NCBI GenBank assembly: GCA_951406725.2
Contig: OX597826.1
Coordinates: 42,036,001-42,100,000, forward strand
DNA length: 64,000 bases
Direction of reading: 5' to 3'
From: Octopus vulgaris
Lineage: Eukaryota
The position numbers and the translations under genes are program-made. Below the pieces are notes generated by a model that had not been told where the DNA came from, searched no databases, and saw only the letters and a program-made list of their open reading frames with translations. Below are positions 1 to 46,491 of the stretch, in pieces (the stretch's first letter is position 1; each line of letters starts with the position of its first letter).

Positions 1-38
1 AGTAAACCAGGAGAAAATTTAAAAACATTTACCCTGTA

Positions 39-145
39 ATTTCTTATACGATATACCGTTTCATCTGCTGATTAATGGTAAACTAACCTGATTAAATTAA
101 ATCAAGCCAATCTTCCACAGGCCCTCAGATTCTTCAGTAAGAAAT
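39..145 (-). ncRNA. Type I hammerhead ribozyme (array 1, copy 1)
   Basis: Reverse complement of the 897-1003 motif with intact core and stems. Confidence 0.85.
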
Positions 146-534
146 AGCCCAAGACGGAACAGATATTTTCACGAGGCATTTCCGACGTTGTCAAGTTAAT
201 ATCTGACCTAAAATTTTCAAATCGTCGCACTCGCGCCAAATTTATCGGCAGCAAATAAATATAAGCCGTCGATTCATTACGGAATTAACCAGAAAATTCA
301 TAATTAATCAATATAGGGTGGCAAAAAAAAAAAATTTTGTAGAATTCTTTTTGCCACCAGCGGCCTAGTAGGAAAAAATTAAAATAGTCAAAGACCATTT
401 TTAAGTTCAACATCAACAATAAAGGAACGGCCATAATAGGCCATTCACCCACTAGAAATAACAGCCAAAGCTTCAACCGCAAATAAAAGTTAATTCAGTA
501 AACCAGGAGAAAATTTAAAAAACATTTACCTGTA

Positions 535-641
535 ATTTCTTATACGATATACCGTTTCATCTGCTGATTAATGGTAAACTAACCTGATTAAATTAAATCA
601 AGCCAATCTTCCACAGGCCCTCAGATTCTTCAGTAAGAAAT
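535..641 (-). ncRNA. Type I hammerhead ribozyme (array 1, copy 2)
   Basis: Reverse complement of the 897-1003 motif, 496 bp from copy 1. Confidence 0.85.
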
Positions 642-896
642 AGCCCAAGACGGAACAGATATTTTCACGAGGCATTTCCGACGTTGCCTAGTTAATATCT
701 GACCTAAAATTTTCAAATCGTCGCACTCGCGCCAAATTTATCGGCAAATAAATATAAGCCGTAATGGAATCGACGGCTTATATTTATTTGCTGCCGATAA
801 ATTTGGCGCGAGTGCGACGATTTGAAAATTTTAGGTCAGATATTAACTTGGCAACGTCGGAAATGCCTCGTGAAAATATCTGTTCCGTCTTGGGCT

Positions 897-1003
897 ATTT
901 CTTACTGAAGAATCTGAGGGCCTGTGGAAGATTGGCTTGATTTAATTTAATCAGGTTAGTTTACCATTAATCAGCAGATGAAACGGTATATCGTATAAGA
1001 AAT
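897..1003 (+). ncRNA. Type I hammerhead ribozyme with 58-nt stem II insert (array 1, copy 3)
   Basis: Stem I ATTTCTTA/TAAGAAAT (8 bp); core CTGAAGA 905-911; stem II ATCTG/CAGAT; GAAA 980-983; stem III ACGG-TATA-TCGT; GUA cleavage triplet ending at 995. Confidence 0.9.
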
Positions 1004-1392
1004 TACAGGGTAAATGTTTTTTAAATTTTCTCCTGGTTTACTGAATTAACTTTTATTTGCGGTTGAAGCTTTGGCTGTTATTTCTAGTGGGTGAATGGCC
1101 TATTATGGCCGTTCCTTTATTGTTGATGTTGAACTTAAAAATGGTCTTTGACTATTTTAATTTTTTCCTACTAGGCCGCTGGTGGCAAAAGAATTCTACA
1201 AAATTTTTTTTTTGCCACCCTATATTGATTAATTATGAATTTTCTGGTTAATTCCGTAATGGAATCGACGGCTTATATTTATTTGCTGCCGATAAATTTG
1301 GCGCGAGTGCGACGATTTGAAAATTTTAGGTCAGATATTATACTTGGCAACGTCGGAAATGCCTCGTGAAAATATCTGTTCCGTCTTGGGCT

Positions 1393-1493
1393 ATTTCTTA
1401 CTGAAGAATCTGAGGGCCTGTGGAAGATATTTAATTTAATCAGGTTAGTTTACCATTAATCAGCAGATGAAACGGTATATCGTATATATAAAT
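1393..1493 (+). ncRNA. Hammerhead ribozyme, array 1 copy 4, 3' strand of stem I damaged
   Basis: Core and stems II/III intact; TAAGAAAT replaced by TATATAAAT. Confidence 0.6.
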
Positions 1494-1615
1494 TACAGGG
1501 TAAATGTTTTTTAAATTTTCTCCTGGTTTACTGAATTAACTTTTATTTGCTATATTGAAGCTTTGGCTGTTATTTCTAGTGGGTGAATGGCCTATTATGG
1601 CCGTTCCTTTATTGA

Positions 1616-1617
<2 letters not shown>

Positions 1618-1708: not shown

Positions 1709-1711
<3 letters not shown>

Positions 1712-1802
1712 AAGTTTACGAAAATAAACAAAAGACGAAGGCAGGTGGAGGACAAACAAACAATTGTATTAGTATGGCGCTCAGGAATAGAAATAAAACA
1801 AG

Positions 1803-1840
1803 TCTTTTACGTTTCGAGCCTACGCTCTTCAACAGAAAGA
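1803..1840 (-). ncRNA. Minimal PLE-type hammerhead with variant core
   Basis: Minus strand TCTTT CTGTTGA A GAGC-GTAG-GCTC GAAAC GTA AAAGA; CUGUUGA instead of CUGAUGA, so it may be inactive. Confidence 0.65.
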
Positions 1841-2570
1841 TACACAGAAAAGAAACAGGGAGAGAAACAAGGAAAGAAAACAAATGCGTGCAGGGGCTAA
1901 CGATTCAACATGGCGTTCTGATTTCAGCCAGAAGTCAGAGATCAGACGTTAGACGCTAGAGGGATAGTAGGGGAGATAACAGGGTCAAGTGACCTCGCCC
2001 CAACATAAGGGTGCGTGTGTGTATAAGAGAGTATGTATATGCGTATGAAAGGTCTGGACGTGTGTATGTATGTATGTATGTATGATGTGATGTGTAATGT
2101 CGTATTGTTTAGTGTAGTATGGTGTAGTGTAGTGTAATGTCGTATGGTGTAGTGTAGTGTAGTGTAGTGTGGTGTGATGTTGTGGGGAGGTGGGGGCGAG
2201 AGTGGGGAAAGCCCATGTGGGGTGTGGGTTCGGCTGGGGGTTGGGATAGAGTGGGGGTTGTGGGGAGAGTGAAAGGGGGAGAGAAGAGAGAGGAGGGGAG
2301 GAGGGAAGAGAGAGGAGGGGGAGGGGAGAGAGGAGATGAGGGGGAGAGAGAGGAGAAGGAAGGAGAAGATGGAGGGGAGGGGAAAGGAGGGGAGAGGAAG
2401 AGGAGGGGAGGGGGGAGAAGGGGAGTGAGGGAGCAGAGAGAAAGAGAGAAGAAAAAAGAGGAAAGAAGAAGAGGGAAGAAGGGAAGAGGAGGGAAAGAGA
2501 GTAGGGGTGAAAAGATGAAGGACTGAAGAGAAGTAGGAGTCGGGTGGGAGGTTAGATGATAGGGGGAGGT

Positions 2571-2872
2571 TAGATGAAAAGGGGGGGGGGGGGTTGAGAC
2601 CAAATGGCGTAAAAGAGCGAAGAGAGAAGATTAATCCCTGTTCACGGCGCAAACGGGAATCCGGATGGCCTCTGTTCCAATCCGAACACAGATAGGTGTT
2701 GCAAAGAGTGACCGGTGGAGCGGAAACGGCGTGAGACCGGTGTGTCATTGGCAAGGCGGATGTCACGGAGGTGTTCCGCGAACTGGTCAACCAAGCGGCG
2801 TCCCGTTTGTCCGATGTACAGGGAATGGCAGAGATAGCAGGAGATGCAATAGATGATATTGCTAGAGGTGCA
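2571..2872 (-). pseudogene. GIY-YIG endonuclease domain of a Penelope-like element, one frameshift
   Basis: Manual translation: CTSSNIIYCISCYLCHSLYIGQTGRRLVDQFAEHLRDIRLANDTPVSRRFRSTGHSLQHLSVFGL, then shifted RLRREQGLIFSLRSFTPFGLN; IY..YIG, R, H, E and GLN motifs. Confidence 0.9.
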
Positions 2873-6503: not shown

Positions 6504-6919
6504 TCAAATGTGAGGATAAAAATATCGCCACTGTCTGTAAGCGTTCACTTCCGAACTAACTCACTCTGTGAGAGTCTCAGTTCAAATCGTACGTGCCTCG
6601 AATGGGCTGGAGTATTTCTATTTTGGATGTATTTGGGGTACTTAGTTGTGCACATGACTTAGTATTTGCTTCTTCCATGGGTATGAGTAAGTATCTCATT
6701 TATTTCTTTTGCCACATGTATCACTGACGAAGAGAGGGCTCTTAGTAGCTAACTCTGAAATCGGTCCGATATGGTAATAATGGAATTTTTTAGAAATTTC
6801 TGTCGACCTTTTTTCGGGTAGCATGTGTATTGTGAAAAAATTATATGGTTAATGGACAATATGTCCAATTTTTCGGCATATTTGGCATTAGAATTTTTTT
6901 TCCTTTGCCCTCATTTATG

Positions 6920-6922
<3 letters not shown>
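6504..6922 (+). mobile_element. Monomeric ~420-bp HHR-bearing element between two (TA)n tracts
   Basis: TA tracts on both sides; HHR 6719-6776; 3' end TTTGCCCTCATTTATGAATTATA resembles the array unit ends. Confidence 0.7.
6719..6776 (+). ncRNA. Type I hammerhead ribozyme
   Basis: Stem I TATCA/TGGTA; CTGACGA; stem II AGAG..CTCT with 18-nt insert; GAAA; stem III ATCGG-T-CCGAT; AUA triplet. Confidence 0.8.
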
Positions 6923-6970
<48 letters not shown>

Positions 6971-7254
6971 CGTGTGTGTGTGTGTATGTCTTTGTGTGTG
7001 TGTTCATCCCGCTCCGCCGCTGGACAACTTGTGTTGGTGTGTCTACGCTCCCATAATTTAGTGGTTCGGCAAAGGAAACTGATAAAATAAGTACTAGGCT
7101 TACTACATCAAAAGTACTAGGGTCGATTCCTTCGACTAAAAGTTCTTCAAAGTGGTGCCCCAGGTATTCTAAGCCGACGCTTTAACGACCCAATAGCAGA
7201 AACAAGATTTAGGCTGTTGTTGTTGTTGTTGTTGTTGTTGATGATGATGATGAT

Positions 7255-16889: not shown

Positions 16890-16964
16890 AGGTGAATGAA
16901 TAATCCTCCTATGTTTACCGTCAACATGGAAAATTCGGTGAACCGATACCAGGGTAGCAAATTC

Positions 16965-17048
16965 ACTTTCCTGATGAGAAGATTGCATCTTGCACCGTTT
17001 ATTCCTTTGGAATAAAACCATGTTGTCTTCGAAACATATGTTGAGAGT
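16965..17048 (+). ncRNA. Type I hammerhead ribozyme with 43-nt stem II insert, in a ~215-bp element between (TA)n tracts
   Basis: Stem I ACTTTC/GAGAGT; CTGATGA; stem II GAAGA/TCTTC; GAAA; palindromic stem III ACATATGT; GUU triplet. Confidence 0.85.
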
Positions 17049-17130
17049 AAAGGAATTTTGTTAACATCTTCGTTCAACTCCATTTATTTATTTATTTATT
17101 CATATATATATATATAAATATAGCGTATAA

Positions 17131-44152: not shown

Positions 44153-44234
<82 letters not shown>

Positions 44235-44510
44235 ATTAATAAGGGTGAGAGAATTAGATACTAATTTAATAGTATATTTATTCAACACCAAGTGGCCTAG
44301 TGCTTCGAGAAACCTGGATTATTATAATATTTTATAACATATTATAATATTTTTACAAAATAAATATAAGAGAGTGGTCACTATATTGCTCACTCTAGCA
44401 CCAGTTAATCCAAAAGGTTTCAACCACGAAAATACATGCTTACCATGAAAGTCAGTACGATTGTTAGCTCACACGGACAGGGCAAATAAAAAATAAGAAA
44501 AATACAGATT

Positions 44511-44595
44511 ATTTTGGGACAATTGTTTCGCTATTAATGAATTAAATGTAATTTTACTTACAAAAAAAATCCATTTGTAGCTCGTCAGCCAAGAC
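44511..44595 (-). ncRNA. Type I hammerhead ribozyme (array 2, copy 1)
   Basis: Reverse complement of 46192-46275. Confidence 0.85.
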
Positions 44596-45046
44596 TATCT
44601 GGATGAAATCCACTCAATCACACGCCAGATTTTACCATAACGATAAATACGCGTGTGGTTCAATTGATTACATCCGACGTTATAATTCAAATGCCCCAAC
44701 CAACAGCGCGCCAAACTCTCACGGAAAACAAATACAGCATTTAGAAATAAATGCAGCATAATTATAATTAATTAATAAGGGTGAGAGAATTAGATACTAA
44801 TTTAATAGTATATTTATTCAACACCAAGTGGCCTAGTGCTTCGAGAAACCTGGATTATTATAATATTTTATAACATATTATAATATTTTTACAAAATAAA
44901 TATAAGAGAGTGGTCACTATATTGCTCACTCTAGCACCAGTTAATCCAAAAGGTTTCAACCACGAAAATACATGCTTACCATGAAAGTCAGTACGATTGT
45001 TAGCTCACACGGACAGGGCAAATAAAAAATAAGAAAAATACAGATT

Positions 45047-45130
45047 ATTTTGGGACAATTGTTTCGCTATTAATGAATTAAATGTAATTTTACTTACAAA
45101 AAAATCCATTTGTAGCTCGTCAGCCAAGAC
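45047..45130 (-). ncRNA. Type I hammerhead ribozyme (array 2, copy 2)
   Basis: Reverse complement of 46192-46275. Confidence 0.85.
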
Positions 45131-45581
45131 TATCTGGATGAAATCCACTCAATCACACGCCAGATTTTACCATAACGATAAATACGCGTGTGGTTCAATT
45201 GATTACATCCGACGTTATAATTCAAATGCCCCAACCAACAGCGCGCCAAACTCTCACGGAAAACAAATACAGCATTTAGAAATAAATGCAGCATAATTAT
45301 AATTAATTAATAAGGGTGAGAGAATTAGATACTAATTTAATAGTATATTTATTCAACACCAAGTGGCCTAGTGCTTCGAGAAACCTGGATTATTATAATA
45401 TTTTATAACATATTATAATATTTTTACAAAATAAATATAAGAGAGTGGTCACTATATTGCTCACTCTAGCACCAGTTAATCCAAAAGGTTTCAACCACGA
45501 AAATACATGCTTACCATGAAAGTCAGTACGATTGTTAGCTCACACGGACAGGGCAAATAAAAAATAAGAAAAATACAGATT

Positions 45582-45666
45582 ATTTTGGGACAATTGTTTC
45601 GCTATTAATGAATTAAATGTAATTTTACTTACAAAAAAAATCCATTTGTAGCTCGTCAGCCAAGAC
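45582..45666 (-). ncRNA. Type I hammerhead ribozyme (array 2, copy 3)
   Basis: Reverse complement of 46192-46275. Confidence 0.85.
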
Positions 45667-46191
45667 TATCTGGATGAAATCCACTCAATCACACGCCAGA
45701 TTTTACCATAACGATAAATACGCGTGTGGTTCAATTGATTACATCCGATTTTTGTTATTTTTTATTTGCCCTGTCCGTGTGAGCTAACAATCGTACTGAC
45801 TTTCATGGTAAGCATGTATTTTCGTGGTTGAAACCTTTTGGATTAACTGGTGCTAGAGTGAGCAATATAGTGACCACTCTCTTATATTTATTTTGTAAAA
45901 ATATTATAATATGTTATAAAATATTATAATAATCCAGGTTTCTCGAAGCACTAGGCCACTTGGTGTTGAATAAATATACTATTAAATTAGTATCTAATTC
46001 TCTCACCCTTATTAATTAATTATAATTATGCTGCATTTATTTCTAAATGCTGTATTTGTTTTCCGTGAGAGTTTGGCGCGCTGTTGGTTGGGGCATTTGA
46101 ATTATAACGTCGGATGTAATCAATTGAACCACACGCGTATTTATCGTTATGGTAAAATCTGGCGTGTGATTGAGTGGATTTCATCCAGATA

Positions 46192-46275
46192 GTCTTGGCT
46201 GACGAGCTACAAATGGATTTTTTTGTAAGTAAAATTACATTTAATTCATTAATAGCGAAACAATTGTCCCAAAAT
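46192..46275 (+). ncRNA. Type I hammerhead ribozyme with 43-nt stem II insert (array 2, copy 4)
   Basis: Stem I GTCTTGG/CCAAAAT (one mismatch); CTGACGA; stem II GCTA/TAGC; GAAA; palindromic stem III ACAATTGT; GUC triplet ending at 46268. Confidence 0.85.
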
Positions 46276-46428
46276 AATCTGTATTTTTCTTATTTTTTAT
46301 TTGCCCTGTCCGTGTGAGCTAACAATCGTACTGACTTTCATGGTAAGCATGTATTTTCGTGGTTGAAACCTTTTGGATTAACTGGTGCTAGAGTGAGCAA
46401 TATAGTGACCACTCTCTTATATTTATTT

Positions 46429-46491
<63 letters not shown>

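What the first reader, a model, noticed from the sequence alone, without database searches (positions are those of the whole stretch)
790..1255. The two array units are distant homologues with colinear conserved blocks
Seen in the same order in array 1 and array 2: TTTGGCGCG; ATTTGAA; AACGTCGGA; the HHR; GGTTGAAGCTTTGG vs GGTTGAAACCTTTTGG; CTAGGCCGCTGGTG vs CTAGGCCACTTGGTG; CCCTATATTGATTAATTAT vs CCCTTATTAATTAATTAT. Intervening sequence and all HHR stems differ but still pair. Both arrays also end at about the same mid-unit position on the right. Inference: these blocks are selected cis-elements for transcription, RT recognition or target priming.
Basis: partly seen in the sequence, partly recalled or inferred. 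Interest (0 to 1): 0.7.

Follow-up and report, generated by a model that had tools for sequence, protein, structure and literature searches.

The report
Retrozyme clade: E2F-like promoter, twin-start fold
The two repeat arrays are distant cousins in a large clade of protein-less jumping elements that carry a hammerhead (self-cutting RNA) motif; three of their shared blocks are strands of a predicted RNA fold, kept by compensating changes, next to the two fixed points where inserted copies end and a borrowed Penelope-type enzyme likely starts copying, while two others match cell-cycle (E2F and CHR) promoter words and may time their transcription.

Summary
The homology is real (global alignment z=4.6, 0 of 500 shuffles). 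Both units belong to one clade of at least seven non-coding hammerhead retroelement families (animal non-LTR retrozymes) with Penelope-type insertions in (TA)n. The blocks are of three kinds. (1) The three 3' blocks are helix strands of one RNA domain: 13 adjacent pairs are kept in 176 of 182 cells, with two-sided changes at 7 of 13 pairs. The 8-bp core is paired in 38 of 40 cells of five copies found by chance. Two hairpins of this domain lie 11-17 nt upstream of two fixed insertion ends; 67 of 74 two-armed insertions use each end once. (2) TTTGGCGCG and (T/C)TTGAA are kept without a common pairing partner and match E2F and CHR words. The spacing is not canonical, and no start-site evidence was found. 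(3) AACGTCGGA is a chance match, lost in close relatives. The autonomous partner was not found. The scan noted the two-armed, two-ended architecture before on other DNA of this genome; one word search of its notes for the helices plus the E2F reading found nothing.

The parts
1..1617 (.). Array 1 (family F1a): head-to-head insertion. The minus arm runs 686 nt past the window's left edge and ends at E1; the plus arm 762-1617 ends at E2; both ends abut (TA)n
   Evidence: L061
762..1256 (+). One 495-nt unit of family F1a; longest ATG ORF 58 aa
802..810 (+). TTTGGCGCG, E2F-consensus-like word; no common RNA pairing partner across families
   Evidence: E2F consensus TTGGCGC in PMC3287175
821..826 (+). 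TTTGAA, CHR-like word (CTTGAA in F3 and F4)
   Evidence: CHR variants in PMC4176359
853..861 (+). AACGTCGGA: variable hairpin loop; chance match to array 2
897..1003 (+). Type I hammerhead: core 905-911, GAAAC 980-984, predicted cut after 995; short, near-palindromic stem III
   Evidence: arm 5' ends enriched just after the cut
1059..1063 (+). Helix P-B 5' strand (start of the GGTTGAAGC block); pairs with 1175-1179
1084..1091 (+). Helix P-A 5' strand; pairs with 1167-1174
1093..1114 (+). Hairpin H2, just upstream of end E2
1115..1127 (+). Linker to fixed insertion end E2 (unit position about 366)
1167..1179 (+). 3' strands of P-A and P-B (the CTAGGCCGC block)
1181..1219 (+). Hairpin H1, closed by GGTG/CACC
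1220..1236 (+). Linker to fixed insertion end E1 (unit position 470-475)
44233..46432 (.). Array 2 (family F2a): minus arm ends at E1 (about 44233), plus arm 45748-46432 ends at E2; in (TA)n
45824..46023 (+). Same RNA domain in F2a: P-B 45824-45828/45955-45959, P-A 45847-45854/45947-45954, H1 base 45962-45965/46004-46007, E1 linker 46008-46023
46072..46101 (+). E2F-like word 46072-46080 and CHR-like word 46096-46101 of F2a
46195..46272 (+). Type I hammerhead of F2a with a 2-bp palindromic stem III; predicted cut after 46268

Best explanation
The two arrays are young insertions of two distant families of one clade of non-coding hammerhead retroelements (animal non-LTR retrozymes), likely copied by a borrowed Penelope-type RT-endonuclease, and the shared blocks are what selection likely kept for that life cycle. 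Steps: (1) Inferred, untested: each unit carries an internal Pol II promoter whose conserved words are TTTGGCG(C/G)G and (T/C)TTGAA, 80-120 nt upstream of the ribozyme, so tandem units give multimeric RNA. (2) Indirectly supported: the hammerhead cuts in vivo, since arm 5' ends pile up just after the predicted cut. (3) Helices shown by covariation, role inferred: the 3' half folds into a domain in which two stacked helices (P-B, P-A) enclose hairpin H2 and are followed by hairpin H1. (4) Shown: insertions end 11-17 nt 3' of H2 or of H1, one end per arm, in (TA)n. Inferred: a PLE protein, probably a dimer, cuts both strands of TA DNA and starts one cDNA behind each hairpin; the two cDNAs are then joined head to head. 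The E1-E2 interval (about 90-130 nt) would be an enlarged version of the PLE 'tail'.
For: Homology: z=4.6, 0 of 500 shuffles. Five more families found with the same architecture, plus chance copies in flanks and in 400 kb taken at round-number positions. Structure: P-B 70 of 70 cells paired and P-A 97.3% (106 of 112 cells counted per pair); two-sided changes at 7 of these 13 pairs; whole structure 87.2% paired vs 79.0 shuffled (0 of 500) and 35-43% when slid. RNAalifold predicts P-B, P-A, inner H2 and the H1 base unprompted. Five out-of-sample copies: P-A 38 of 40 cells, all helices 83 of 105, vs 33-40 when slid. Ends: one E1 plus one E2 in 30 of 33 F1a and 12 of 15 F2a two-armed loci and in 25 of 26 F3 loci (recount rows); never the same end twice. 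Arm 5' ends: 18 of 170 in the 20 nt after the cut, 2 before, 6.9 expected (p=2e-4). PLE precedent: both strands cut and extended, RT starts at two internal sites, tail between them, dimer predicted (PMC11167929). E2F-like word ranks with the hammerhead GAAAC as the best-kept 6-mer among copies not found through it; E2F+CHR+core pattern 28 hits vs 1 control.
Against: No autonomous PLE with this domain was found in three PLE families examined. No raw RNA reads were available, so transcription, cutting, circles and start site are not shown. Arm 5' ends show no peak near the CHR-like word (7 and 7 in the two 20-nt bins, 6.9 expected). The E2F-CHR spacer is 10-15 nt, not the canonical 4 (PMC3287175). 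Family F6 reads mostly TTTAGCGCG (9 copies vs 3 TTTGGCGCG). The post-cut enrichment is not significant in F3 alone (4 of 68, p=0.32). The structure was read by eye from these families before counting, and sequences are related, so control (a) is not a probability; the number of pairs with two-sided change was reached by 26 of 500 shuffles. Outer H2 and inner H1 pairs shift register between clades (76-77% paired). F5-F7 were found with the E2F+CHR pattern and cannot test it.
Confidence: 0.65

Rival explanations
1. The 5' words are not a DNA promoter. They are an RNA-level or protein-binding signal (export, ligase or RT loading), and the units are transcribed by read-through or from another, unrecognised promoter.
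For: Non-canonical, variable spacer; F6 departs from TTSSCGC; no 5'-end peak; both words lie inside the unit-length RNA.
Against: No common pairing partner across four monomers or in the alignment fold. The change that spread in F4 gives TGGCGG plus CTTGAA, both listed as CDE and CLE/CHR words (PMC5716687 Table 1). Two CpGs are kept although old copies lose them.
Confidence: 0.3
2. The blocks are neutral remnants of common descent or AT-rich chance matches, with no shared function.
For: True for AACGTCGGA; pairwise signal is modest (z about 4-5).
Against: The same columns are kept across at least seven families at about 50-60% identity, with compensatory changes, and they coincide with the two insertion ends.
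Confidence: 0.05
3. The RNA domain serves circle stability, ligation or ribozyme silencing rather than RT recognition. The two ends are set only by local U/A-rich tracts that anneal to the TA target.
For: Both ends lie in A/T-rich linkers that blend into (TA)n; the unit has many other hairpins; circular retrozyme RNAs must keep the ribozyme off by an unknown means (PMC7229834 Discussion).
Against: The units hold many other AT-rich tracts that are almost never used as ends. The two used ends keep their distance to H1 and H2 in every family, and are used strictly one per arm (67 of 74).
Confidence: 0.2

Closest known systems
Animal non-LTR retrozymes (Cervera and de la Pena 2020, PMC7229834: abstract passages, Discussion read; Li, Clavereau and Pollet 2026, 10.64898/2026.07.22.740005: parts 1-3 of 5 read, i.e. 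all main text)
   Same: Short AT-rich tandem units, one type I hammerhead each, no protein, many dispersed copies, PLEs proposed as mobilisers.
   Different: What I read of these papers names no promoter words, no conserved RT-start domain and no two-armed, two-ended insertions. Units here are 474-535 nt, and no pLTR match was found for this clade.
Poseidon PLE of Anolis (Frangieh et al. 2024, PMC11167929: parts 1-2 of 4 read) and EN+ PLE insertion structure (Craig et al. 2021, PMC8557442: passages and supplement excerpts seen)
   Same: Tandem and inverted arms, AT/TA targets, two internal RT start sites 3' of a hammerhead, both DNA strands extended.
   Different: No ORF. The interval between starts is about 90-130 nt rather than 30-40. 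Starts lie 3' of two hairpins of a covarying multi-helix domain, not in one AC-rich stem-loop.
E2F, E2F/CLE and CDE/CHR promoters bound by DREAM/MuvB (PMC3287175, PMC4176359, PMC5716687: passages seen)
   Same: TTGGCGC or TGGCGG followed by TTTGAA or CTTGAA, same order and strand.
   Different: Spacer 10-15 nt instead of 4; located in a mobile non-coding repeat; no binding or expression data. One family has A at the third position of TTSSCGC.

Membership tests
Animal non-LTR retrozyme | Tandem units of a few hundred nt, each with a type I hammerhead | tested here: met
Animal non-LTR retrozyme | No protein-coding capacity | tested here: met
   longest ATG ORFs within the units 52-58 aa
Animal non-LTR retrozyme | Dispersed multi-copy mobile family | tested here: met
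   995 and 1870 first-look candidates; scored copies 97-100% identical on many contigs
Animal non-LTR retrozyme | Ribozyme self-cleavage | tested here: inconclusive
   indirect only: 18 of 170 arm 5' ends in the 20 nt after the cut vs 2 before; not significant in F3 alone
Animal non-LTR retrozyme | Expressed as linear and circular monomer RNA | not testable with these tools
   only contigs, none on record as RNA
Animal non-LTR retrozyme | Homology to the pLTR of an autonomous PLE (Li et al. 2026: 24 of 57 Xenopus families matched a known TE, nearly all PLEs) | tested here: inconclusive
   no match in three PLE families of this genome; other PLE families not examined
EN+ Penelope-like element | RT plus GIY-YIG ORF | tested here: not met
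   non-autonomous
EN+ Penelope-like element | Tandem/inverted insertion with two alternative 3' ends (tail), microsatellite target | tested here: met
   67 of 74 two-armed loci use E1+E2, in (TA)n; interval longer than the usual 30-40 nt
E2F/CHR (DREAM) promoter | E2F or CDE word | tested here: met
   TTGGCGC in F1, F2, F3, F5, F7; TGGCGG in F4; mostly TTAGCGC in F6, which does not fit
E2F/CHR (DREAM) promoter | CHR word TTTGAA or CTTGAA | tested here: met
   in 598 of 611 5'-module hits over nine clusters, with overlapping loci counted more than once
E2F/CHR (DREAM) promoter | 4-nt spacer between the two | tested here: not met
   10-15 nt in family representatives; shorter only in single variant copies
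E2F/CHR (DREAM) promoter | Next to a transcription start and bound by E2F/LIN54 | not testable with these tools
   proxy (arm 5' ends) shows no peak
snRNA-type (PSE) promoter | Match to this genome's U2 PSE | tested here: not met
   best scores 4.1 and 5.8 bits vs at least 21 for U2 genes and a shuffle 95th percentile of 6.6-7.0

The most novel reading that the evidence does not exclude
A protein-less retroelement clade carries its own E2F plus CHR (DREAM/MuvB-type) promoter, which switches it on in cycling or germ-line cells. It also carries a conserved RNA landing pad whose two hairpins position the two subunits of a hijacked Penelope RT at two start sites about 100 nt apart, one for each strand of a cut TA repeat. 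That would be a defined cis-acting template structure for PLE reverse transcription and a cell-cycle-timed source of ribozyme-made RNA circles.
Probability: 0.3. Interest if true: 0.8.

Novelty: new variant of a known kind. Interest (0 to 1): 0.6.

Why it matters
How PLE enzymes choose their template and their two start sites is open: the one in vitro study outlines it only broadly. Which promoter drives animal retrozymes was not stated in the papers I read. This clade gives a natural mutagenesis series of at least seven families at about 50-60% identity. It marks a 13-bp covarying helix pair and two hairpins at fixed distances from the start sites, which are ready targets for disrupt-and-rescue tests. 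It also offers a concrete promoter hypothesis (E2F plus CHR) that one reporter assay can test.

Tried and rejected
Rfam: no match at gathering score in the window, and only weak unrelated matches by E-value; the hammerheads were read by hand.

ARAGORN: no tRNA. By inspection the 5' words lack the invariant A-box and B-box positions and spacing (consensus recalled), so a tRNA-type Pol III promoter was rejected. snRNA PSE was rejected.

Pattern E2F+CHR+ACGTCGGA with other spacers: 0 hits. The pattern was mis-specified (it fits neither window family) and is not a valid negative.

Partner search: the PLE beside array 1 and two younger PLE families with 776- and 781-aa frames share no domain with the clade. 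The Hydra-1_Obim hammerhead row in the PMC8557442 supplement differs from these.

RNA: no RNA holder listed; contigs cannot show starts or circles. A transcription-start peak among arm 5' ends was not seen.

Corrections: one search used the array 1 cut site one base too early (corrected). The E2 class limits were set too narrowly, so those rows were recounted by eye. L091 was dropped as a duplicate of L090, and 5' ends read as unit position 1 were dropped as BLAST artefacts before the counts.

Literature: 'retrozyme'+'E2F' gave 2 unrelated papers; E2F sites in MITEs gave 0; searches listed nothing on such a domain or promoter by title or abstract; one search was uninformative. Subscription journals and bioRxiv supplements (including those of Li et al. 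2026) were not seen.

Full report
Observation. The window lies in a 2.8-Gb, microsatellite-rich animal genome; earlier notes of the scan call it octopus, which I did not establish myself. Array 1 (1-1617, 495-nt unit) and array 2 (44233-46432, 535-nt unit) are both head-to-head tandem arrays in (TA)n. The units align better than dinucleotide shuffles: z=4.6, 0 of 500; colinear 7-mer chain 100 vs 56+-9. Each unit has a type I hammerhead with an intact core and different, pairing stems, and no ATG ORF above 58 aa. Both are young, high-copy families.

More families. Two sequences cannot show which blocks are selected, so I looked for relatives. A 91.5% subfamily of array 1 and two more distant families, F3 (474 nt, 169 pattern hits) and F4 (60 hits), were found through anchors unrelated to the 5' words. 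F5, F6 and F7 came from a pattern of E2F-like word + CHR-like word + hammerhead core (28 hits vs 1 control), so they cannot test those two words. Further copies turned up by chance in flanks and in 400 kb taken at round-number positions. In the 3' domain F1a and F2a are 57% identical; identities of F1a to the F2, F4, F6, F7 and chance copies are 47-61%.

AACGTCGGA is not conserved. In array 1 it is a hairpin loop that close subfamilies have replaced. It occurs only in the F1 and F2 clusters. In the family alignment array 2's copy lines up with array 1 positions 833-843 instead.

The three 3' blocks are helix strands. The start of the GGTTGAA block (1059-1063) pairs with GCCGC of the CTAGGCC block (1175-1179; helix P-B). 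The sequence 1084-1091 pairs with 1167-1174 (P-A). GGTG (1181-1184) pairs with CACC of the last block (hairpin H1). P-A encloses hairpin H2 (1093-1114). On 14 real copies from seven families, P-B is paired in all 70 cells and P-A in 97.3%, with two-sided changes at 7 of these 13 pairs. The whole structure is 87.2% paired vs 79.0% shuffled and 35-43% slid. RNAalifold finds the same helices unprompted. In five copies that were not in the alignment, P-A is paired in 38 of 40 cells and all helices in 83 of 105, vs 33-40 when slid. Limits: I proposed the structure by eye from these families; relatedness inflates shuffle controls; the count of pairs with two-sided change was reached by 26 of 500 shuffles; outer H2 and inner H1 shift register between clades.

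This domain frames the two insertion ends. Arms end either 11-13 nt after H2 (E2) or 12-17 nt after H1 (E1) in F1a, and at homologous places in the other families. Two-armed insertions use each end once in 30 of 33 F1a loci, 12 of 15 F2a loci (two of the exceptions were cut by the fetch edge) and 25 of 26 F3 loci (recount). None uses the same end twice. The scan had noted this architecture before in other copies. It matches the Anolis PLE in vitro: both DNA strands cut and extended, RT starting at two internal sites, the stretch between them being the tail, and a dimer predicted (PMC11167929). The interval here is about 90-130 nt rather than 30-40 (PMC8557442). Arm 5' ends are enriched just after the predicted hammerhead cut: 18 of 170 in 20 nt, 2 before, 6.9 expected, p=2e-4; F1a 9 of 69, F2a 5 of 33, F3 4 of 68 (not significant). 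This suggests that some templates were linear RNAs cut by the ribozyme.

The two 5' blocks behave differently. TTTGGCG(C/G)G ties with the hammerhead GAAAC as the best-kept 6-mer among seven copies not found through it. It has a different predicted partner in each of four monomers and none in the alignment fold. TTGGCGC is the E2F consensus and TTTGAA/CTTGAA are functional CHR words (PMC3287175, PMC4176359, PMC5716687). F4 carries TGGCGG plus CTTGAA, both listed motifs. A looser E2F+CHR composite occurs 2 times in 800 kb of background sequence, both strands counted. Against this reading: the spacer is 10-15 nt, not 4; F6 reads mostly TTTAGCGCG (9 vs 3); arm 5' ends show no start-site peak; the match was noticed after the fact. 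The genome's U2 PSE does not match the units. I put about 45% on a real E2F/CHR-type promoter.

Partner. Three PLE families were examined: the one whose fragment sits beside array 1 and two with many near-identical 776- and 781-aa frames. None carries the domain or the 5' module. The 781-aa family shows an ordinary 35-37-nt tail and a 3' repeat rich in CCAAT-like and CRE-like words (labels recalled). The mobiliser remains unidentified.

Verdict. A real homology within a known class, animal non-LTR retrozymes. New here are a covarying RNA domain tied to the two start sites and a candidate cell-cycle promoter pair. My literature searches and one word search of the scan's notes listed neither. 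Function of both is inferred, not shown. Interest 0.6.

Noticed in passing
window 1709-2872 (- strand): A 5'-truncated PLE (GIY-YIG end, minimal hammerhead near 1810-1835) shares the TA run at array 1's right end. Its family is very abundant (11406 first-look candidates), but its 3' end lacks the retrozyme blocks.
   Followed up: partly
window 45748-46420, run X2: Contigs of a run guessed to be RNA show 12 A>G places on the hammerhead-sense strand, against 2 in a large unlabelled run. Possible A-to-I editing; low depth, other organism label, unverified.
   Followed up: no
L088:3880-4790: An F1 array and an F2-type (93%) two-armed insertion sit side by side in one TA run.
   Followed up: no
L288-L297, L302 (781-aa PLE family): The 3' repeat holds several ATTGG and TGACGTC words and a TATA-like word; two 3' ends lie 35-37 nt apart. 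A TTTTTTA run lies at the start of the RT frame in this and the 776-aa family.
   Followed up: partly
L222, L241, L167 (just 5' of the E2F-like word): F4, F6 and F7 keep TTCCG(G/T)GA(A) directly upstream of the E2F-like word; it resembles a STAT site (label recalled). Not kept at that place in the F1 clade.
   Followed up: no
arm 5' ends of F1a, F2a, F3: A second excess of arm 5' ends falls inside hairpin H1 (27 observed, 14.4 expected), suggesting that RT stalls at the hairpin or at a bound protein.
   Followed up: partly
window 6560-6990 and 16900-17080: Two further hammerhead-bearing elements of other families lie between TA runs in the window.
   Followed up: no
L118-L129: U2 genes of this genome fall into at least three upstream types sharing an ATCAGT-centred PSE-like word at about -57 to -61.
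   Followed up: partly
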